Positions 121 through 11,172 of a DNA stretch of 64,000 bases are shown here, in pieces. Position numbers and translations under genes: made by a program. The stretch is taken from sequence record NC_017969.1. The stretch is one strand, 5' to 3'. The notes under the pieces are model-generated. The model was not told where the DNA came from, made no database searches, and saw nothing but the letters and a program-made list of their open reading frames with translations. Numbering within the stretch: the stretch's first letter is position 1; every line of letters begins with the position of its first letter. Origin of the DNA: Escherichia phage vB_EcoS_AKFV33.

Positions 121-855
121 TTACGCAACTTTTAATTTCTCCATGTATTGTTGCGGGCTGCAACTATATTCTGCGCGTTCTTCCTCGGTCATACCTTCCC
201 AACATAATTTCAAACGATCAGCTAGGAATTGATAATCATTATCATCATCGAGGGATTCATCAATAAAGGTTTCACCTATTAATGCCACGCCGATTGATAG
301 AATATCGTTAACGGCTTGTGCGTCCAGTGTTTTAAATCCGTATGACGCTGCCGCTGATAGCACGCCTTTATGATCATCAATCATTGTAAAATCAGCGTTC
401 GGATATAACTGTTTAAATAACTCAAAATAATAAGATTTATACACTGCGTCCTTGCTGTGGTATATTTCGCTAACCTTATCAGCTTTAAAATATTTATGCA
501 GTGTGTCGCGGGAAAACACGCGGATATTGCTTTTATCACGACCACGCAAGCCTTGTTTGCGCAGGAAGTAATAATCTGATTTGCTCATTAGTCGAGCGGT
601 GCAAATAATGTTTAAAGTATTTGAGTCATTCATGCACTGGCGCATGTATTCAACTAATGGTAATAAAGTATCTTGCATTATTAAATGATGTTTGCAGGCT
701 TCATTTTTATACTTATTTAAATCTAAATTACCCTCATTATCAAAGCAAGGCGCTACACGATGGAAAGAATTAATGATAGTGCCGTCTAAATCCCAAATCA
801 TGACGCGGGAAATATGCGGGAAGCTGCGGGAAATATTCATAATAGCTTTATTCAT
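121..855 (-). CDS. dmp: 5'-deoxyribonucleotidase, HAD-family phosphatase (pre-early)
   Basis: 244 aa ORF; N-terminal HAD motif I (WDLDGTII); first gene of leftward pre-early operon as in T5-like phages. Confidence 0.8.
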   Translation of the reverse strand: MNKAIMNISRSFPHISRVMIWDLDGTIINSFHRVAPCFDNEGNLDLNKYKNEACKHHLIMQDTLLPLVEYMRQCMNDSNTLNIICTARLMSKSDYYFLRKQGLRGRDKSNIRVFSRDTLHKYFKADKVSEIYHSKDAVYKSYYFELFKQLYPNADFTMIDDHKGVLSAAASYGFKTLDAQAVNDILSIGVALIGETFIDESLDDDNDYQFLADRLKLCWEGMTEEERAEYSCSPQQYMEKLKVA

Positions 856-1694: not shown

Positions 1695-3359
1695 TTATGC
1701 AAAGAATTTACCGTTTTTAAAGTCAATCAAAGTGCGCTGACCGTTTGCATAGGTAATTAAATGCGTTTGCGTCCAGCTTGACGCGCCAACGTTGTAACCC
1801 ATGTCCAGACTACCAGCTACGCCAGCGGTGTATACGCCACCGTAAATGCTGGCGGTATGAGTGTGTCCAGTGTTCAGTTTACCCAATTTCTTAAACTGTT
1901 TCGGATTGCCACGGCTGCCGTTAATGCCGTTGTGACCGTGTACGCCGCATTCAATGCCTGCAATCTTGAAAGATTGATCAGTAGTCAGGAAAATGGCGTT
2001 AAATTCACAACCTGCAACCTTGCGCAGCGCATAATCTAGCACGTTGAAGGTGTCGTCTTTTTCTGCAATAGCTCCATAAATCGCGGCATTTAGGCGGTGA
2101 TATAGTTCGGCGTTGGCGGGATCGTCTTTGATGTTAGCATTACGATCATCCAGCCAACGGGATAACGCCAGATCATGGTTAGATTCAACAATGATTGTTT
2201 GAGAAAAATCGCGCTCCATTGACTCCAACACGCGCCCCGTATCGATAAGATCATCCAGAACTTTATCACGTCCGGCGGCATACTGTTTTGCTAGGAATAC
2301 ACCGGATGCGCGGTTATGATGATTGCGGGATGTAAAATCATGCACGTCATGCACAAACTGATATTTTGGTTTAAGAATATCAAGCAAGCTATTTTCGCCA
2401 GCCCATGACGCAACGGCACAATCATCATCCAGTTTTTCGGCGTGAATATCGCCATATTGCAAGCCTAAAACATGCCCCGACGTTTCATAGCATCCGGCAG
2501 GAGTAGCGCAAACATTCAGATCATAAAATACCCCGCTTTCATCCATCGTTTCAAGCTGGCGAACAAAAAACTCACCGTCTTCGTCGAACTCGACAACAAG
2601 CGCACCGAAATTATGCAATGCTTCGGCTTTTTGTCCTGCCTTCTGCTGAATGTAGTTTTTGAGCGTTGCCGTTCCAGTTGAATACATACGGCGCACTACT
2701 TCACCTTTTAAAGCTGGCACGCTTTCGGCGGTAATTTTAGCGTGACCAATTGCCAGACCTTCCAGATTAAGCGCCGTTGCAGTTTCAGCGAATCCAGAAA
2801 GCGGATAATCTGCGGTGGGCAAAACGTTAATTTCAGCCATGAAAGCAAAACGGCGGTTATTTAAAAACACGTTTTTGCTGCAAATATATTTATCGAATGC
2901 GGAATCATATTTTATCCCATCCGCGCCCTCGCCATTTTGGAATCCGTTTTTATTATAAATATACTTAGAAACAAGCAAATCAGCACCGATAAATTGGGCA
3001 TATTGCTCCAGACTTGCTAAAAAGTTTTTATGCGGGAAAGTATTATTCTGAATCGATGTAATAATAAAGCGTTTGCCCTGCTTTACTTCCCAGCTTTCCA
3101 CCGTGCTAGAAACAATCCCCGCCGCTTCTGGGCGCTCATCGTTTTTAATGGCTTTTGCTACTTTTGCCGCTTTTGGTTTGACTGGTTTATTTGCTTCCAG
3201 CCAATCACAAATGGCGGTGGAGTGTTTAGTAGTATCGTATACCGCTTTCGAAATATCGTCACAAACTTCCAATTTAGTGGCGCGCAGACGTTTACCGTAG
3301 AAATTGAAGTCAGCGGCCATTTTCAGGATAACGGTTTGTTTTTCTGCGGAAATAATCAT
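1695..3359 (-). CDS. A1: A1-like pre-early protein with C-terminal calcineurin-like metallophosphoesterase domain
   Basis: 554 aa ORF; phosphoesterase motifs (GDIH, HGHNG, GHTH) in C-terminal half; lies between dmp and A2 as in T5. Confidence 0.8.
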   Translation of the reverse strand: MIISAEKQTVILKMAADFNFYGKRLRATKLEVCDDISKAVYDTTKHSTAICDWLEANKPVKPKAAKVAKAIKNDERPEAAGIVSSTVESWEVKQGKRFIITSIQNNTFPHKNFLASLEQYAQFIGADLLVSKYIYNKNGFQNGEGADGIKYDSAFDKYICSKNVFLNNRRFAFMAEINVLPTADYPLSGFAETATALNLEGLAIGHAKITAESVPALKGEVVRRMYSTGTATLKNYIQQKAGQKAEALHNFGALVVEFDEDGEFFVRQLETMDESGVFYDLNVCATPAGCYETSGHVLGLQYGDIHAEKLDDDCAVASWAGENSLLDILKPKYQFVHDVHDFTSRNHHNRASGVFLAKQYAAGRDKVLDDLIDTGRVLESMERDFSQTIIVESNHDLALSRWLDDRNANIKDDPANAELYHRLNAAIYGAIAEKDDTFNVLDYALRKVAGCEFNAIFLTTDQSFKIAGIECGVHGHNGINGSRGNPKQFKKLGKLNTGHTHTASIYGGVYTAGVAGSLDMGYNVGASSWTQTHLITYANGQRTLIDFKNGKFFA

Positions 3360-3738: not shown

Positions 3739-4146
3739 TTATTCCCCTGCGGCTTGTTTTACTTCATCGGCAACGCCTAGCAGTTGCGCTACGGCGTCCA
3801 GCGTTTCAAGTTTTGCACTTTCCAGACTTGCCAGATCATCGGCGTCTTTGATAATGCCGGAATCAATAGCATGTTTAGCGATAACGCGCACATAGTGAGC
3901 TTTACGCACAGAGCTACCGCCGCCAACTTTACGCGGCTTATCGCTTTTTTGATAGGCTTTTGCACTGGTCAATTTTGACCGAACGGATACGGGAGAAGCC
4001 GCGCCTACTGCTTTTGCAATCTCTTTTAAACCGTCGCTATTTGCGAAATCTAAACCGTTTTCATTGATTAACTGCTGGTACATAGAAACAGCTTTCTGAG
4101 TGTTTTCTTCGTTCCATGCGAATTTTGCGGTTTTTGCGTTAGTCAT
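3739..4146 (-). CDS. A2: A2-like pre-early protein
   Basis: 135 aa ORF directly upstream of A1 in operon order; size and position match T5 A2. Confidence 0.65.
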   Translation of the reverse strand: MTNAKTAKFAWNEENTQKAVSMYQQLINENGLDFANSDGLKEIAKAVGAASPVSVRSKLTSAKAYQKSDKPRKVGGGSSVRKAHYVRVIAKHAIDSGIIKDADDLASLESAKLETLDAVAQLLGVADEVKQAAGE

Positions 4147-5429: not shown

Positions 5430-5678
5430 ACTTATTTTATAAAATTAATTAATTGACTTTTATTTGTTAGTATGTATCGGAAAGATAGCAGACTAATAAT
5501 TACTAGAATAATAACCATGCTGGTGGATTGTAACGGCCTAAACTATCAGCAGACTATTAATCACGAAAAATCTCGTTAGCTAACTAACTATTTCATGATG
5601 TATAATATACATATAAATTAATGAGAAATAATAACTATAAGAAACTATCGGCCTAAGTGAGAACCACTATCATTTAAG

Positions 5679-5771
5679 TTATCCACAAGTTTATTAACAG
5701 CACAAAATGATTTGACACGATAGGCGGCGATATAAAGACTTATCCACAGACTTATCCACAGGTTATCCTAC
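5679..5771. promoter_or_regulatory. cluster of DnaA boxes (TTATCCACA x3 plus TTATCCTAC)
   Basis: exact matches to DnaA box consensus at about 5679, 5740, 5752. Confidence 0.5.
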
Positions 5772-5786
5772 TGTATAAATATACAG
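5740..5786. repeat. left arm of inverted repeat (CTTATCCACAG..TTATCCTACTGTATAAATATACAG)
   Basis: reverse-complement copy found at 8876-8911. Confidence 0.5.
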
Positions 5787-6053
5787 GGTAGAAAGGTAGT
5801 GTTAACAACTGCAATCAATTTTAAGCGGCCTAAAACGCTTTCTAACGAGCTAAATGCGGTGGGATAATATTAAAGTAAAGCCTTCACCCGTCGCCCTGGT
5901 GGCTTCGCCGTGGTTTGCTCTTTATTACACCGCTGCGCGGTTAGCATAAAACTAGGCGCTAGGCAAGGAAAATAAAAAGGTAAAATAATATTTGCCCCTA
6001 GAAAGAAAATACCTTTATCATTCACTCACCGATTAACGAGGGAGGCCGAACAA

Positions 6054-7947: not shown

Positions 7948-8053
7948 AACGGCTTTTCGTTTTTGGGGCGTCCTGCCTTCAATCGGTTTTATTCTGATAA
8001 TCATTAGTCAGCTAATGATTATAGGAGGAACTATTTGGGAGCTATGCAAATGA
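7931..8053 (+). CDS. small membrane peptide (40 aa)
   Basis: ATG with SD GGGAGG upstream; hydrophobic product MIQQIKTAFRFWGVLPSIGFILIII... Confidence 0.3.
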   Translation: MIQQIKTAFRFWGVLPSIGFILIIISQLMIIGGTIWELCK

Positions 8054-8394
8054 TAATTTATGAAGGCAATCGCTTTGTTGCTAATTGCCGTACGGCATTA
8101 CTAGCAAATTACTTAAATCAGCTTTCCCCAGCTTACAAGGGCGTTATTAATATTTATGAGGGCAAGGCGCATTATAAAATCAATGCGGTCGTTGCCCGTG
8201 AACTAGCGTTTCAATTTTTGACCTTTGCATCTTGTGACGTTCAGGTTATGGGTGAGGCATTAATTGCAGAAAATGAAGATGATTTTATTAATATTTTCCG
8301 CAAGATATGCACCGAGCGGCTGATAATGAAAGGCGCATATATTCAATCCACTGCGGATAGCATTGAAACAGCATTTCGAAAGGTGGCGCAGTGA
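8044..8394 (+). CDS. hypothetical protein
   Basis: ORF track 8035-8394 begins at a TTG; ATG at 8044 has SD AGGAGG upstream. Confidence 0.5.
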   Translation: MQMIIYEGNRFVANCRTALLANYLNQLSPAYKGVINIYEGKAHYKINAVVARELAFQFLTFASCDVQVMGEALIAENEDDFINIFRKICTERLIMKGAYIQSTADSIETAFRKVAQ

Positions 8395-8422
8395 GATAAT
8401 CAACTAATAACGGAGCGTTATT

Positions 8423-8617
8423 ATGAGCAATAAAATTATTGTAACCAAAACTAGTACAATGGTTGATATTTTTTACGTGCCCGATACGCCGGAAAACCGA
8501 CAAGCGGTCGAGCGTGGCGAATATGATAAAGTGATTTATGATCACGATGGTTATTATCATTATTTGGTAGATTCCTATGGGGAGGAGGAAAAAATCACGC
8601 ACCGACTACCGGACTAA
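8423..8617 (+). CDS. hypothetical protein
   Basis: 64 aa ORF, SD GGAG upstream. Confidence 0.45.
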   Translation: MSNKIIVTKTSTMVDIFYVPDTPENRQAVERGEYDKVIYDHDGYYHYLVDSYGEEEKITHRLPD

Positions 8618-8658
8618 TAATCACGGGGCGCAACTATCAGGAAGTGCCCCCAATTCTC

Positions 8659-8679
8659 AAATGAGAATGATTCTCATTT
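8659..8679. repeat. perfect palindrome AAATGAGAATGATTCTCATTT
   Basis: operator-like dyad symmetric site. Confidence 0.5.
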
Positions 8680-8875
8680 GACCGCGCTCGCGATGGTTAG
8701 CCTGCTAATGGTTAGGGTGTTACGTGTCGCCTTGTGTGATCGTTAGCGGGCTAACTAATTTTCAAGCCTCCTCCAATTTTGCCCTTGTTTTAGTATCTCC
8801 ACCAAAATTAAACGCGTTAGAATGCGATCTAGGACGTTTTAGCGGTATATTAGAATTATTCACTACATAGGAATA

Positions 8876-8911
8876 CTGTATATTTATACAGTAGGATAAG
8901 CTGTGGATAAG
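8876..8911. repeat. right arm of inverted repeat with DnaA box (CTGTATATTTATACAGTAGGATAAGCTGTGGATAAG)
   Basis: reverse complement of 5740-5786 region. Confidence 0.5.
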
Positions 8912-9002
8912 TCTGTTAATAACGCTTCAAAATGGCTAGGATTCTGTCAAATCAAATCGTGCTGTTAATAAGTCTGAGGATAACTTAAATAATAGTGTTT
9001 CT

Positions 9003-9175
9003 CACTTCCATTCTTAAATGCGAATCATTATCATTCGCATTTCACTATCTAACCGATAATCACTCCACTTTTTAAATGAGAATCATTTCACTTTTTGAAT
9101 AGCTCTCATTTCACTTCTTAAATGAGAATAATTATCATTTGCATTCCACTTCTTAAATGATAATGATTCTCATTC
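9003..9175. repeat. four direct copies of ~22-bp motif CACTTCTTAAATGAGAATCATT (some internally palindromic)
   Basis: copies near 9003, 9063, 9107, 9148. Confidence 0.5.
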
Positions 9176-9180
9176 AAAGT

Positions 9181-9200
9181 CGCAGGGCAATTGCCCTGCG
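9181..9200 (+). other. perfect 20-bp palindrome CGCAGGGCAATTGCCCTGCG (hairpin, terminator-like)
   Basis: followed by CTTTTG. Confidence 0.35.
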
Positions 9201-9205
9201 CTTTT

Positions 9206-9943
9206 GTGCAAATCCGACATTGCTCCACGGGTGTTACGTGCGGGCATGTATGTGCGAATCCGACAATTTTTGGTAGTGTGCAAATCCGACCCGAAAAATT
9301 TTTATAGTGTGCAAATCCGACAATGAATTTTCCCAAAAACTCCAGCAATCCGATGCTGCGCATCAATCCTGTGGAATTAGCTAGAATATGTGCAAATCCG
9401 ACATGGGTTTATTTGTGCGAAACCGACAAGATTTTTGTGACTTCGATTGGAGGGTGTGTGATTGTATGGGTTTGGGGAGAAGATAAGAGAGCGAGAGAAA
9501 TTTGGGAGGCTAGAAGGATGGGGCGCATGTTTGGTGCGGAGCACCTGATTTGCGGGGATTTTGGGGAAGAGTTGAGAAGATTTGGGTTAATTTGAGATAA
9601 GTGCAGAAAAAGTAAAATTTTATTAGCAAAATGGGGCAAAATAGCTTGACAAGTGAAAATTTCTGTGGCTCTAAAAACTCAGGCAATCATGGGCCTTCGG
9701 CCCGAAATAATGCTGCCATTTTCAGGAGATTATGTGTCCATGAAAACTTAGGCAATTGTGCAAATCCGACCAGTTTTTAAACTTATGTCAGTGTGCAAAT
9801 CCGACAGTAATTTCTGTAAATGTGTTTTCAAAAAATGTCTCCTAGAAATAACCGCCCTCCCAATAACCGCCCTGTATAGGAAAACCGGCCTAGGATATTT
9901 ATAGCAGGAGAGAAACTGCCCTATAATATGTGCAAATACGACA
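9206..9943 (+). repeat. array of nine direct 14-bp repeats GTGCAAATCCGACA (iteron-like)
   Basis: copies at about 9206, 9251, 9277, 9308, 9389, 9414, 9767, 9792, 9930, all in the same orientation, 0-2 mismatches. Confidence 0.6.
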
Positions 9944-10281
9944 GGATTTTCCTAGAAACTTAGGAGTCTACTAGAAAGTGTTGTGCCATCCTAGGAAGAG
10001 CGGTGGCAACAAGTGTATCATCTTGAATGTAAATTATGTGGTCAAAAGTTTTACCTTTAATTTAAGTATAAGATCCCCCAAAGATTGGAAGAGATGCTCC
10101 ACCCCTGGGATACGAATTGCGTGAGATGGTACAAAACTTCTTAAGATTTCCCTAGCCCTTCGACAAGCTACGGGGGAAATAGAAGTTTCCCATCCACTAT
10201 CCGTATCCGGGTGGATCTCTTTATTCTATGTTATTTCATAGAGTTATTATAACATGCAGAAATCATAACGTCAAGTAGAGT

Positions 10282-11172
10282 TTATTCATCGAACATGAGA
10301 TTTCCTTTCATCCCCATCTCCGCATACTCCATGAGTTCTTTGATGGATCTCACGGGGTAATCTACTTTACTAAAGTTATCATAGATCTTGCACGAACTCT
10401 CGTACAACTCGTTAGGTATCTGCAATTTGTTATCTGTTAGCTTCTCATAACGTGCAGAAGAATTTGTACCCTCAAATAGAACTGCGATAACTGCGGCGAT
10501 TTGTTTAGTAAGATCATCTGCTCCTAGAATTATTCTATTAATAGCAATCGTTACTTCATGCTTAGGTTTAGCAGGCGGAAGGATAGGTTTGAGATCCTTA
10601 GGTAAAGGTTCTGTTCCTAGGAATCCTTCTTTTGTGCGGAACCAATAATTATCTAGATCAGATATCGTCTTAGACTTATTCCAAATAGTAAAGCAGGGTT
10701 TATTTCCTTCACGATCTCTGTATTCACGAACTGGAAGGTAATGATCAGGGAATGAATTGAGTGCATCATGCATCGGTGAGCCTGTCTTTTTGAAGGACAA
10801 ACCATATAACTCATTATAATTCATAACTTCATCTTCGTAAACATGGAAATCTTTATATGCTGGAAGATTAAACCATTCCTGAAGTGAATGAACTGCAAAA
10901 CGTTGTGCCCAAGCATGCATCACTAGAACTCTGTATTCTTTTACTTCATCTTTTGGAGAAGTACCTTTAGCTGTTCTAGCTGAACGAATACAGAACATCT
11001 CAACAACACGTTTCTCATTTAAAGAGAGTTCAGAATAACAACGTTCATGGCAGCCTTCTAGCATTTCTAGAAGTTCACGTAGTTTCTCTACATCGACCGG
11101 TGGAAAAGGTCTTTCTTCAACTGCGAATTTACCAGTTACACCTTTTGGTTTTCTATTACTATAAAATCCCAT
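10282..11172 (-). CDS. hypothetical protein
   Basis: 296 aa ORF; translationally coupled (ATGA overlap) with upstream ORF. Confidence 0.55.
   Translation of the reverse strand: MGFYSNRKPKGVTGKFAVEERPFPPVDVEKLRELLEMLEGCHERCYSELSLNEKRVVEMFCIRSARTAKGTSPKDEVKEYRVLVMHAWAQRFAVHSLQEWFNLPAYKDFHVYEDEVMNYNELYGLSFKKTGSPMHDALNSFPDHYLPVREYRDREGNKPCFTIWNKSKTISDLDNYWFRTKEGFLGTEPLPKDLKPILPPAKPKHEVTIAINRIILGADDLTKQIAAVIAVLFEGTNSSARYEKLTDNKLQIPNELYESSCKIYDNFSKVDYPVRSIKELMEYAEMGMKGNLMFDE

What the first reader, a model, noticed from the sequence alone, without database searches (positions are those of the whole stretch)
8659..9200. Operator-like palindromes and four 22-bp direct repeats upstream of the 14-bp array
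There is a perfect palindrome AAATGAGAATGATTCTCATTT (8659-8679), four direct copies of CACTTCTTAAATG(A/C)GAAT(C/A)ATT (about 9003-9175), some with internal dyad symmetry, and a perfect 20-bp palindrome CGCAGGGCAATTGCCCTGCG (9181-9200). Such a density of symmetric sites in non-coding DNA suggests binding sites for a dimeric regulator or structural DNA elements.
Basis: seen in the sequence. Interest (0 to 1): 0.45.

Follow-up and report, generated by a model that had tools for sequence, protein, structure and literature searches.

The report
Fur-box array in T5 injection-stop region
The palindromes and repeats are real and are the already-catalogued repeats of the "injection stop signal" of T5-like phages, but they match binding sites for the host iron regulator Fur (next to a textbook LexA box and DnaA boxes), which gives a testable lead on how these phages pause DNA entry.

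Summary
The window is the left end of a T5-like phage genome. Positions 8659-9200 lie in the non-coding end of the left terminal repeat, which is the "injection stop signal" (iss, Repeat Region 3) annotated in T5. The four repeats, the AT-rich palindrome and the GC palindrome belong to the repeat and palindrome families that Davison catalogues for T5 and 25 relatives, with function unknown. One-to-one names are my positional inference.

What I add:
- **Fur match.** The AT-rich elements are one motif, AAATGAGAATnATTCTCATTT, and it matches Fur operators. A matrix built only from phage copies ranked ryhB, fecA, fecI, fhuA and exbB promoters as its top five hits in 343 kb of E. coli DNA. An E. coli-derived Fur matrix scores the phage boxes as high as real operators.
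- **Protein site, not hairpin.** The two half-sites vary independently.
- **Conserved module.** The order LexA box, DnaA boxes, Fur-like array is kept across Demerecviridae, including a Vibrio and a Pectobacterium phage.
- **GC palindrome.** It is a terminator-like hairpin whose arm is the T5 nick motif RR^GCGCAGGG.

Actual Fur binding and any role in the injection stop are inferred, not shown. No paper I could reach links Fur or LexA to this region.

The parts
8623..8649 (+). GC-rich hairpin (GGGGCGC...GTGCCCC) directly after the stop codon of the last pre-early ORF (8423-8617). It is a terminator-like end of the rightward pre-early operon.
   Evidence: Fold of 8615-8700: -30.7 kcal/mol, z -4.66. 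Conserved in 11 of 17 distinct T5-like loci. In the Vibrio phage VspSw_1 a hairpin followed by a T run sits at the same place.
8657..8681 (.).
   Evidence: Arms of 12 nt, 100% complementary (I14). 12/14 to the Fur 7-1-7 consensus. E. coli-derived Fur matrix scores 17.1 and 14.8. Present in 11 of 17 T5-like loci and in the Vibrio phage; absent from T5 itself.
8741..8763 (+). Weak hairpin GTTAGCGGGCTAAC followed by TAATTTTCA. It is the positional equivalent of the putative rho-independent terminator annotated in T5 at 9275-9296.
   Evidence: Alignment with T5 and the T5 annotation. The fold is not better than shuffles, so this part is weak in this phage.
8874..8893 (.). LexA (SOS) box TACTGTATATTTATACAGTA.
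   Evidence: 19/20 to TACTGTATATATATACAGTA, with 0 expected by chance. The CTGT...ACAG arms are invariant in all 17 distinct T5-like loci; only the two central bases flip between AA and TT. Kept in the Vibrio phage, and with one arm mismatch in the Pectobacterium phage.
8902..8922 (.). DnaA box pair TGTGGATAA-gtc-TGTTAATAA (consensus plus variant), matching Davison's IRD' by position.
   Evidence: Davison 2020 describes paired DnaA boxes 3 bp apart in IRD'-spacer-IRC'.
8963..8983 (.). Second DnaA box pair TGTTAATAA-gtc-TGAGGATAA, matching IRC' by position.
   Evidence: Direct repeat D8 with 8900-8923. Conserved in the alignment.
8987..9007 (.). AAATAATAGTGTTTCTCACTT, a weak Fur-like element. 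It lies within a stretch (CTTAAATAA(C/T)AGTGTTTCTCACTTCC) that is nearly invariant in most aligned loci.
   Evidence: Phage matrix 18.1 bits. Highly conserved in the alignment, with a few variable positions. An inverted copy lies at 5655-5675.
9016..9042 (.).
   Evidence: 12/14 to Fur 7-1-7. Phage matrix 30.1 and 18.9. E. coli Fur matrix 16.6 and 14.8.
9074..9094 (.). The left half is intact and the right half degenerate.
   Evidence: Phage matrix 23.1. Tandem 23-bp units of this type account for the copy-number expansions in other phages.
9120..9146 (.).
   Evidence: 13/14 to Fur 7-1-7. The best hit of the E. coli-derived Fur matrix in the whole 64-kb window, 21.1 bits.
9155..9175 (.).
   Evidence: 13/14 to Fur 7-1-7. 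E. coli Fur matrix 16.2 and 15.3. Davison's approximate FST shear point falls in the equivalent T5 box after a coordinate shift of +80 that I inferred from the two T5 records.
9181..9200 (+). GC palindrome CGCAGGGCAATTGCCCTGCG followed by CTTTTGTG: an intrinsic-terminator-like hairpin.
   Evidence: Terminator scan: 8 pairs, 7 of them G-C, loop of 4. -23.6 kcal/mol on the plus strand and -20.3 on the minus strand, z -3.8 and -4.7. The stem GCAGGGCA/TGCCCTGC is invariant in Tequintavirus and Epseptimavirus loci while the loop varies. Annotated as a terminator in phage Shivani.
9198..9202 (-). GCGC nick motif. The predicted single-strand interruption lies between 9201 and 9202 on the minus strand (AAAA^GCGCAGGGC), equivalent to the T5 '7.9%' major nick.
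   Evidence: The T5 nick annotated at 9748/9749 (-) aligns here. The four T5 major nicks share RR^GCGC followed by AGGG or GGGC. The other three T5 nick features state that they were placed by match to the consensus NPu pGCGCN; the 7.9% feature carries no such note.
9206..9219 (+). First copy of the 14-bp array (GTGCAAATCCGACA). Context only; the array runs on to about 9943.

Best explanation
The region is the left part of the T5-type injection stop signal (Repeat Region 3 of the left terminal repeat). This is the last DNA to enter the cell in first-step transfer.

The AT-rich palindrome and the four direct repeats are copies of one motif, and that motif matches an operator for the host iron regulator Fur, a dimer. 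One box lies just after the last pre-early gene. Four or five more, some built from overlapping units 6 bp apart, form an array. Between them lie a near-perfect LexA box and two pairs of DnaA boxes.

My proposal is that these sites are loaded by host proteins already present in the cell as the DNA arrives. The resulting protein-DNA complex of about 300 bp at the boundary would be the unidentified 'host component' of the injection stop. [quoted passage not shown]

The GC palindrome at the right edge is a separate element. It is a terminator-like hairpin that closes pre-early transcription, and one of its arms is the recognition motif of the T5 nicking activity (major nick at 7.9%).

Shown: identity with the T5 iss repeats, Fur-operator-grade sequence, family-wide conservation of order, half-site independence, hairpin and nick motif.
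Inferred: that Fur binds here in vivo.
Speculative: that binding contributes to the injection stop.
For: Location and identity:
- The window starts at the phage left end, with dmp at 121-855 as in T5.
- T5 annotates iss at 9140-10149 and a major nick at 9748/9749. The window aligns base for base with T5 through this stretch.
- Davison 2020 lists palC/palD, IRD'-spacer-IRC' with DnaA boxes, DRE x2 (66 bp), DRC x4, palE-J and DRD x9 here, and says the functions cannot be guessed.

Fur match:
- The boxes match the Fur 7-1-7 consensus at 12-13 of 14 positions. There are 6 such matches in the window against 0.93 +/- 1.04 expected.
- A matrix built only from 61 unique phage copies was scanned over 343 kb of E. 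coli K-12. Ranks 1-5 were ryhB, fecA, fecI, fhuA and exbB. Eleven of the top 16 hits fell in 10 of 11 Fur-regulated promoter regions.
- The ryhB, exbB and feoA regions were fetched after the matrix was fixed.
- None of 1000 column-permuted matrices reached the observed 7 of 11 (mean 0.51, maximum 6).
- A Fur matrix built from E. coli promoters scores the phage boxes 14.8-21.1 bits. Real operators score 9.1-17.9 when left out of the matrix. The ten best hits in the 64-kb window are all terminal-repeat boxes.
- The znuA/znuC Zur operator scores -3.3 bits with the phage matrix, so the match is specific to Fur.

Protein site rather than hairpin:
- Symmetric positions are no more complementary than chance, and only 2 of 42 unique boxes are perfect palindromes.
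- Box spacings fall on 23, 29, 35, 41 and 47 bp, in steps of 6, the Fur hexamer period.

Host rather than phage protein:
- The order Fur-like box, LexA box, DnaA boxes, Fur-like array is kept in Tequintavirus, Epseptimavirus and Sugarlandvirus. It is also kept in a Pectobacterium phage and a Vibrio phage.
- Over the same distance the phage DNA-binding protein A2 falls to about 42% identity. The strict pattern for the 14-bp repeat finds no copy in the Vibrio locus.
- The same motif occurs three times, 29 bp apart, in an unrelated Phapecoctavirus. A2 matches were found only in Demerecviridae-type records.
- The exact motif is in 113 further IMG/VR loci, only one of them T5-like.

Fit with biology:
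- In vivo the stop needs no protein synthesis, yet the whole genome is ejected into FhuA proteoliposomes. A pre-existing host factor is therefore implied and is still unidentified.
- Fur forms multimeric complexes that extend beyond its operator (review PMC3788343).
Against: - No binding experiment exists. The Fur assignment rests on sequence alone.
- No conserved sigma-70 promoter overlaps the boxes, so they are not operators in the classical sense.
- The flank CACTTCTT is repeated together with the boxes. This could reflect another ligand, or only recent slippage.
- A soluble cytoplasmic protein bound to DNA that is already inside the cell does not by itself explain a mechanical stop against capsid pressure.
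- Fur binds DNA only when loaded with Fe2+. Cells that express the FhuA receptor most strongly are iron-starved, and there the boxes would be empty.
- fur is non-essential and I know of no report that fur mutants resist T5. This is my own knowledge and was not checked here.
- T5 itself lacks the upstream palindrome.
- The copy number of the array varies from 3 to 7, so no fixed architecture is required.
Confidence: 0.45

Rival explanations
1. The boxes are binding sites for a phage-encoded pre-early protein, such as the DNA-binding protein A2 or an A1-A2 complex. That protein would recognise the stalled DNA and restart transfer, and the likeness to Fur boxes would be coincidental.
For: - A1 and A2 are required for second-step transfer, and A2 is annotated as a DNA-binding protein.
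- A2 is conserved in all Demerecviridae.
- The repeats carry conserved flanks beyond the Fur core.
Against: - The stop itself needs no phage protein synthesis.
- The motif is unchanged in phages whose A2 is only about 42% identical.
- The same motif array occurs in a Phapecoctavirus, while A2 matches were found only in Demerecviridae-type records. It also occurs in more than 100 non-T5 viral contigs.
- The phage matrix picks out E. coli Fur promoters far beyond composition-matched controls.
- Pfam finds no DNA-binding domain in ten pre-early ORFs, which is uninformative either way.
Confidence: 0.2
2. The region is a cis-acting site for events late in infection, such as concatemer processing, terminal-repeat duplication, packaging or an accessory replication origin. 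Host factor sites would play an architectural role, as IHF does at lambda cosB, or DnaA boxes with iterons at plasmid origins.
For: - The region lies within about 0.5 kb of the right boundary of the terminal repeat. The 14-bp array straddles that boundary (T5 repeat end at 10219).
- DnaA boxes, an iteron-like array, a nick and palindromes resemble origin or pac-type regions.
- The reverse complement of the 14-mer, aTTTGCACA, is 8/9 to the relaxed DnaA box quoted.
Against: - Fur and LexA are not known architectural factors for packaging or replication.
- Electron microscopy placed T5 replication origins near the middle of the genome (Davison 2020).
- Nothing in the sequence ties the Fur-like boxes in particular to terminase.
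Confidence: 0.15
3. The boxes are true Fur operators that make a phage transcript iron-responsive. One candidate is a short RNA that would start inside the array and end at the GC hairpin.
For: - Fur boxes normally overlap promoters.
- A weak promoter-like site, TTCACT-17-TATCAT at 9110-9138, precedes the terminator-like hairpin by about 60 nt.
Against: - Promoter-like sites are not enriched: 9 found against 6.4 +/- 2.5 expected.
- The -35 of the candidate is not conserved among relatives.
- There is no Rfam match.
- T5 annotates promoters elsewhere in the terminal repeat and none in this region. A 2026 preprint likewise names three experimentally characterised pre-early promoters, all elsewhere.
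- The asymmetric centre of the LexA box flips orientation between phages, which argues against a fixed promoter there.
Confidence: 0.08
4. The palindromes act as DNA structures. Cruciforms or hairpins would jam in the tail tube or channel and so stop transfer.
For: - The secondary-structure idea is current in the literature (PNAS 2026; Davison's 'knot').
- The window has a perfect 25-bp palindrome and a perfect 20-bp palindrome.
Against: - AT-rich boxes: only 2 of 42 unique copies are perfect palindromes. Most have 1-4 arm mismatches, and there is no compensatory variation.
- T5 lacks the upstream palindrome.
- Sugarland lacks the GC hairpin but keeps the GCGC nick context.
- In vitro the full genome passes through FhuA without stopping at 8%.
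Confidence: 0.05

Closest known systems
Injection stop signal (iss) / Repeat Region 3 of the bacteriophage T5 left terminal repeat (Heusterspreute et al. 1987; T5 record NC_005859; Davison 2020, bioRxiv 10.1101/866236)
   Same: Same position in the genome. The same order of elements aligns base for base with T5: LexA-type palindrome, paired DnaA boxes, 66-bp repeats containing the roughly 22-bp repeats, GC palindrome, nick, 14-bp array.
   Different: This phage and many relatives carry an extra Fur-like palindrome after the last pre-early ORF that T5 lacks. The last box is 12 bp shorter than in T5. The accessible literature names only DnaA boxes here, not Fur or LexA.
Fur operators of Enterobacteria (19-bp Fur box GATAATGATAATCATTATC; 7-1-7 reading TGATAATnATTATCA; ryhB, fhuA, fecI/fecA, fepA-fes, entC, cirA, exbB)
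   Same: Same core motif, the same preferred half-site variants GAGAAT and ATTCTC as the native E. coli sites collected, overlapping units 6 bp apart, and scores equal to native operators.
   Different: Not placed over a promoter. Arranged as an array of 4-8 boxes in non-coding DNA of a virulent phage. Longer symmetric flanks (AAATG...CATTT). Binding and iron response are untested.
RNA-polymerase-driven, terminator-limited genome entry of phage T7 (my own knowledge, not checked here)
   Same: Only a leading genome segment enters at first. A boundary made of terminators lies at the end of the host-transcribed early region. Phage gene products are needed for the rest.
   Different: I could not establish whether T5 first-step transfer depends on transcription. 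T7 has no reported cluster of host-regulator sites at its boundary. This is an analogy for how the region might work, not a membership claim.
Clusters of DnaA boxes outside origins (datA-type sites) and Davison's membrane-bound DnaA anchor model for T5
   Same: A cluster of high-affinity sites for a pre-existing host protein, proposed to hold the incoming DNA.
   Different: The module also contains LexA and Fur sites. Neither protein is membrane-bound, so the logic shifts from a membrane anchor to a general protein complex or roadblock.

Membership tests
T5-type injection stop signal (Repeat Region 3) | Lies in the long non-coding stretch at the right end of the left terminal repeat, between the last pre-early ORF and the leftward early genes. 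| tested here: met
   ORF map. T5 annotation of iss at 9140-10149 and of the left terminal repeat. 455 T5-like records match the stretch.
T5-type injection stop signal (Repeat Region 3) | Conserved order: palindromes, IRD'-spacer-IRC' with paired DnaA boxes, two 66-bp DRE repeats containing DRC repeats, GC palindrome, then about nine 14-bp DRD repeats. | tested here: met
   Repeat families D1-D5 and D8. Alignment with T5 and 15 other distinct loci. Description in Davison 2020.
T5-type injection stop signal (Repeat Region 3) | Acts in cis to halt DNA transfer at about 8% of the genome. | not testable with these tools
   Needs blender or Southern experiments. Even for T5 the exact iss is not mapped.
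Fur box (Fur operator) | Match to the 19-bp consensus or its 7-1-7 inverted-repeat reading, at the level of native operators. | tested here: met
   12-13 of 14 positions. E. coli-derived matrix 14.8-21.1 bits against 9.1-17.9 for left-out native sites. Consensus taken from PMC3788343.
Fur box (Fur operator) | Specificity: a model of the sites should pick out Fur-regulated promoters and not other AT-rich sites. | tested here: met
   Phage-only matrix: 11 of the top 16 hits in 343 kb fall in Fur-regulated promoters. 0 of 1000 permuted matrices reach the observed count. The Zur operator scores -3.3 bits.
Fur box (Fur operator) | Overlaps the -35/-10 of a promoter that it represses. | tested here: not met
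   No enrichment of promoter-like sites and no conserved promoter. So the boxes are Fur-binding-site-like but not classical operators.
Fur box (Fur operator) | Bound by Fur-Fe2+ in vitro or in vivo, with an iron-dependent effect. | not testable with these tools
   Needs a gel-shift, footprint, Fur titration assay or ChIP.
LexA (SOS) box | CTGT-N8-ACAG palindrome with an AT-rich centre (TACTGTATATATATACAGTA). | tested here: met
   19/20 at 8874-8893 with 0 expected by chance. Arms invariant in 17 distinct loci. The exact 20-mer is found in at least 120 viral contigs, many in the 20-50 kb size range. Binding not tested.
DnaA box | 9-mer TT(A/T)TNCACA. | tested here: met
   TGTGGATAA at 8902 is a perfect match. 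The variants at 8914, 8963 and 8975 are the DnaA* types (TTATTAACA-like, one or two changes from consensus) described by Davison.
Intrinsic (rho-independent) terminator, for 9181-9200 | GC-rich stem-loop followed by a U-rich tract, at the end of a transcription unit. | tested here: met
   8-bp stem with 7 G-C pairs, loop of 4, tail CUUUUGUG. -23.6 kcal/mol, z -3.8. Termination activity itself not tested.
T5 single-strand interruption (nick) site | 5'-N-Pu^GCGC-N on the nicked (minus) strand at the mapped position (7.9%). | tested here: met
   AAAA^GCGCAGGGC, identical to T5 over the aligned 21 bases. The four T5 major sites share RR^GCGC followed by AGGG or GGGC. The physical nick in this phage was not tested.

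The most novel reading that the evidence does not exclude
T5-like phages build their long-sought injection stop from the host's own global regulators. Pre-existing Fur, LexA and DnaA would load onto a dedicated battery of operators on the last-entering segment of first-step DNA. They would hold it there, or block any motor that reels it in, until pre-early functions have disarmed the cell. Release could then be coupled to A1/A2 and possibly to host signals, such as LexA cleavage after host DNA breakdown or the iron status sensed by Fur.
Probability: 0.2. Interest if true: 0.85.

Novelty: already known. Interest (0 to 1): 0.6.

Why it matters
Two-step DNA transfer by T5 was described in the 1960s. 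Why transfer stops at 8% is still unknown. Papers from 2020, 2023 and 2026 all say that the host component and the role of the iss repeats are unresolved.

Reading the iss repeats as Fur boxes, next to a canonical SOS box and DnaA boxes, names concrete candidate host proteins. It also turns the question into simple experiments: fur, lexA and dnaA host alleles, iron chelation, gel shifts, and box-scrambled phages.

If it holds, it would be an unusual case of a virulent phage using host regulators as structural parts of genome delivery. It would also link infection through iron-regulated receptors to the iron status of the cell.

If Fur does not bind, the result still shows that the AT-rich repeats are protein sites rather than hairpins. 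It also shows that the GC palindrome is built on the nick motif.

Tried and rejected
- **RNA families:** an Rfam search of 8000-10500 gave nothing credible. The one hit was a trypanosome snoRNA at E = 0.45.
- **Promoters:** the promoter scan showed no enrichment and no conserved promoter over the boxes. I therefore dropped the classical operator reading.
- **LexA box as a -10 element:** rejected, because the asymmetric centre of the box (AA or TT) flips between phages.
- **Hairpin or cruciform selection in the AT-rich boxes:** rejected, because there is no covariation between half-sites.
- **Zur instead of Fur:** the outer AAATG...CATTT flanks resemble a Zur box. However, the znuA/znuC operator scores -3.3 bits with the phage matrix, and the phage boxes match my recalled Zur consensus at only 12-14 of 23 positions.
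- **Phage regulator among pre-early genes:** Pfam on ten pre-early ORFs found only two domains of unknown function and no DNA-binding domain.
- **GC hairpin as a general feature of T5 nick sites:** rejected. Two of the four major nicks lie inside genes without such a hairpin. Only the sequence motif is shared.
- **Literature:** no paper in the library links T5 or Tequintavirus with Fur or LexA boxes.
- **Not used:** protein homology, structure and fold-search tools, because the finding is non-coding.
Full report
**What the window is**

The window starts at the left physical end of a T5-like phage genome. The dmp gene lies at 121-855 on the minus strand, an A1-sized ORF at 1695-3359 and an A2 homologue at 3739-4146, as in T5. 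A rightward block of small ORFs ends at 8617. The stretch 8600-10280 matches 455 phage records, nearly all T5-like phages of Salmonella, Escherichia and Klebsiella, at 80-95% identity. Several of these records annotate it as 'left terminal repeat'. The T5 reference record annotates the equivalent stretch as 'injection stop signal (iss)' at 9140-10149. It has no CDS there, and it places a 'major DNA single-chain interruption' at 9748/9749 on the minus strand.

**Observation**

All three features exist as described.
- The AT-rich palindrome at 8659-8679 has perfect 10-nt arms around a central G and extends to 12+1+12 at 8657-8681.
- The four direct repeats start at 9008, 9066, 9112 and 9147. The palindrome is a fifth member of their family.
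- The repeats are nested in a 66-nt repeat, 9000-9065 and 9104-9169.
- CGCAGGGCAATTGCCCTGCG at 9181-9200 is a perfect 20-bp palindrome.

The motif with up to 3 mismatches occurs four times in the window and never in 100 shuffles.

**Already catalogued**

Davison's 2020 preprint lists, for 'Repeat Region 3' of T5: palC, palD, IRD'-spacer-IRC' with paired DnaA boxes, two 66-bp DRE repeats, four DRC repeats, palE to palJ and nine DRD repeats. It reports the same order in 25 T5-like phages and states that their functions are impossible to guess. My repeat families and the alignment with T5 reproduce this order. Papers from 2023 and 2026 still describe the iss only as repeats, palindromes and DnaA boxes, with mechanism unknown.

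**Map of the region**

From left to right:

| Coordinates | Element |
|---|---|
| 8623-8649 | GC hairpin after the last ORF |
| 8657-8681 | Fur-like palindrome |
| 8741-8763 | Weak hairpin at the place of a T5-annotated terminator |
| 8874-8893 | TACTGTATATTTATACAGTA, 19/20 to the LexA consensus |
| 8902-8922 | DnaA box pair |
| 8963-8983 | DnaA box pair |
| 8987-9007 | Highly conserved weak Fur-like element |
| 9016, 9074 (half-site), 9120, 9155 | Fur-like boxes; two carry a second overlapping unit offset by 6 bp |
| 9181-9200 | GC palindrome |
| 9198-9201 | GCGC |
| from 9206 | 14-bp array |

**The AT-rich elements match Fur boxes**

- They match the 7-1-7 reading of the Fur box, TGATAATnATTATCA, at 12-13 of 14 positions. 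The window has six such matches against 0.93 +/- 1.04 expected.
- To avoid judging by resemblance alone, I built a matrix only from the phage's own copies. The seed was the phage palindrome, and 61 unique sites came from 19 T5-like loci. The consensus is AAATGAGAATCATTCTCATTT.
- I scanned this matrix over E. coli K-12 DNA. In the first 245 kb, seven of the top eleven hits fell in Fur-regulated promoter regions: fecA, fecI, fhuA, cirA, fepD/entS, fepB/entC and fepA/fes. None of 1000 column-permuted matrices reached seven (mean 0.51, maximum 6).
- I then added two further 49-kb pieces after the matrix was fixed. The ryhB promoter became rank 1, exbB rank 5 and feoA rank 16. In total, 11 of the top 16 hits lay in 10 of 11 such regions; tonB was missed.
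- In the reverse direction, I built a Fur matrix from the best match to the published consensus (PMC3788343) in those eleven promoters. It scores the phage boxes 14.8-21.1 bits. The native sites score 9.1-17.9 when each is left out of the matrix. Its ten best hits in the 64-kb window are all terminal-repeat boxes.
- Native operators often carry the phage's preferred half-sites, TGAGAA and ATTCTC.
- The Zur operator of znuA/znuC scores -3.3 bits with the phage matrix.

**Protein sites, not hairpins**

Among 42 unique strong boxes, only two are perfect palindromes. Most have one to four arm mismatches. At the variable symmetric positions, complementarity is no higher than expected if the two halves vary independently. 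The number of boxes downstream of the LexA box ranges from 3 to 7 among relatives. Their spacings fall on 23, 29, 35, 41 and 47 bp and sums of these, in steps of six, which is the Fur hexamer period.

**Conservation points to host factors**

- The arms of the LexA box are invariant in 17 distinct loci spanning Tequintavirus, Epseptimavirus and Sugarlandvirus. Only the two central bases flip.
- The order Fur-like box, LexA box, DnaA boxes, Fur-like array is also present in Pectobacterium phage DU_PP_V and Vibrio phage VspSw_1.
- In the Vibrio phages A2 is only about 42% identical. My strict pattern for the 14-bp repeat finds no copy in that locus.
- Three copies of the same motif, 29 bp apart, sit in a non-coding stretch of the unrelated Phapecoctavirus anhysbys. 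A2 matches were found only in Demerecviridae-type records.
- The exact 21-mer occurs in 113 further IMG/VR loci, only one of them T5-like, and 14 of them have three or more boxes within 400 bp.
- A second copy of the LexA/DnaA module lies inverted at 5655-5788.
- A perfect 14/14 Fur 7-1-7 lies inside dmp at 230-244 and is conserved in T5.

**The GC palindrome**

It folds into an 8-bp stem with seven G-C pairs, followed by CUUUUGUG. The energy is -23.6 kcal/mol on the plus strand and -20.3 on the minus strand, with z-scores of -3.8 and -4.7. Phage Shivani annotates the same element as a terminator. The stem is invariant while the loop varies. Sugarland lacks the hairpin but keeps CTGCGCTT(A/T)TGTGC.

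The annotated T5 nick aligns to 9201/9202 on the minus strand. The four T5 major nick sites read RR^GCGCAGGG(C), with one variant GCGCGGGC. One arm of the palindrome is therefore the nick motif. The other three T5 nick features state that they were placed by match to a consensus; the 7.9% feature carries no such note.

**Mechanism (inference)**

Three facts come from the literature. In vivo the transfer stops at 7.9% without protein synthesis. In vitro the whole genome is ejected into FhuA proteoliposomes. The responsible host component is unknown. Davison proposed membrane-bound DnaA.

Davison's approximate shear point is 9618 in AY587007. Shifted by +80 to the NC_005859 numbering, an offset I inferred from the terminal-repeat lengths and box positions in the two records, it falls in the last Fur-like box, about 50 bp left of the nick.

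I therefore propose that Fur, LexA and DnaA already present in the cell load onto this 300-bp module as it enters. Together they would form the host part of the stop. Candidate modes are a clamp at the channel exit, or a roadblock (together with the terminators) for RNA polymerase or another motor. This step is not shown. Three weaknesses stand out:
- A cytoplasmic complex does not obviously resist capsid pressure.
- Fur needs Fe2+ to bind DNA.
- fur is dispensable for the host, and I know of no report that it affects T5. This is my own knowledge and was not checked.

**Rivals**

- **Phage A2 or A1-A2 sites.** This fits their role in restart. It is weakened by the motif's constancy, its presence outside the family and the Fur-promoter test.
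- **Packaging or replication cis-site.** The position near the repeat boundary and the iteron-like array fit. Fur and LexA are not known to act in these processes.
- **Iron-regulated promoter.** No conserved promoter was found, and there is no Rfam match.
- **DNA structure.** This is contradicted for the AT-rich boxes.

**Novelty**

The sequence features are already known. What appears new, within the literature I could search, is their reading as Fur boxes and the recognition of a canonical SOS box beside the DnaA boxes.

Noticed in passing
window 230-244 (inside dmp, 121-855 minus strand): TGATAATCATTATCA is a perfect 14/14 match to the Fur 7-1-7 consensus, in the first DNA to enter the cell. 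The same 15-mer is present in T5. It lies in coding sequence, so protein constraint may explain its conservation.
   Followed up: partly
window 5655-5788: An inverted second copy of the module: weak Fur-like AAGTGAGAACCACTATCATTT (5655), DnaA boxes at 5679, 5691, 5740 and 5752, and LexA-like TACTGTATAAATATACAGGG (5769). By position it corresponds to Davison's IRC-spacer-IRD in Repeat Region 2, about 3.1 kb from the copy at 8874-9007.
   Followed up: partly
T5 loci L001:2749, L247:1837, L248:2247, L249:1574; window 9201/9202: The four annotated T5 major nick sites share more than the published NPu^GCGCN. Three read RR^GCGCAGGG and one RR^GCGCGGGC. At the 32.6% site the motif looks like the 3' arm of a hairpin, next to an annotated bidirectional terminator.
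   Followed up: partly
L006 (Escherichia phage anhysbys, Phapecoctavirus) 1474-1558: Three strong copies of the same Fur-like motif, exactly 29 bp apart, in an 800-bp non-coding stretch of an unrelated 149-kb phage. They are followed by other short repeats (AAACTTTAAATTTT type).
   Followed up: partly
window 9206-9943 (14-bp array): The reverse complement of the 14-mer contains aTTTGCACA, which is 8/9 to the relaxed DnaA box TT(A/T)TNCACA. The array could be a set of weak DnaA sites. My strict pattern for the 14-mer finds no copy in the Vibrio phage locus.
   Followed up: no
window 8717-8726 and 9231-9240; L132 about 2394-2403: GTGTTACGTG occurs twice in the region (repeat D7). It also follows the Fur-like palindromes in the Vibrio phage VspSw_1. 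This is a conserved motif with no assignment.
   Followed up: no
window 8693-8753: Three copies of a 15-mer (ATGGTTAGCCTGCTA type) lie between the first Fur-like palindrome and the weak terminator. They are conserved in the subset of phages that carry the palindrome.
   Followed up: no
IMG/VR loci L134-L246: The exact Fur-like 21-mer is present in 113 further viral loci, only one of them T5-like, and 14 have three or more boxes within 400 bp. In several loci the box lies within a few hundred bases of a locus end. This may reflect assembly breaks at repeats.
   Followed up: partly
E. coli loci L128:44581, L131:15940, L130:8861, L131:31111: High-scoring phage-matrix hits outside my list of Fur promoters: between map and rpsB, upstream of oppA, between yeiS and preT, and near yciG. 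I did not check whether these are known Fur sites.
   Followed up: no
19 T5-like loci, /scratch alignment: Centre-to-centre spacings of the Fur-like boxes take only the values 23, 29, 35, 41 and 46/47 bp (steps of six) and sums of these. The last spacing is 35 bp in 17 of 19 loci (41 bp in the other two).
   Followed up: partly
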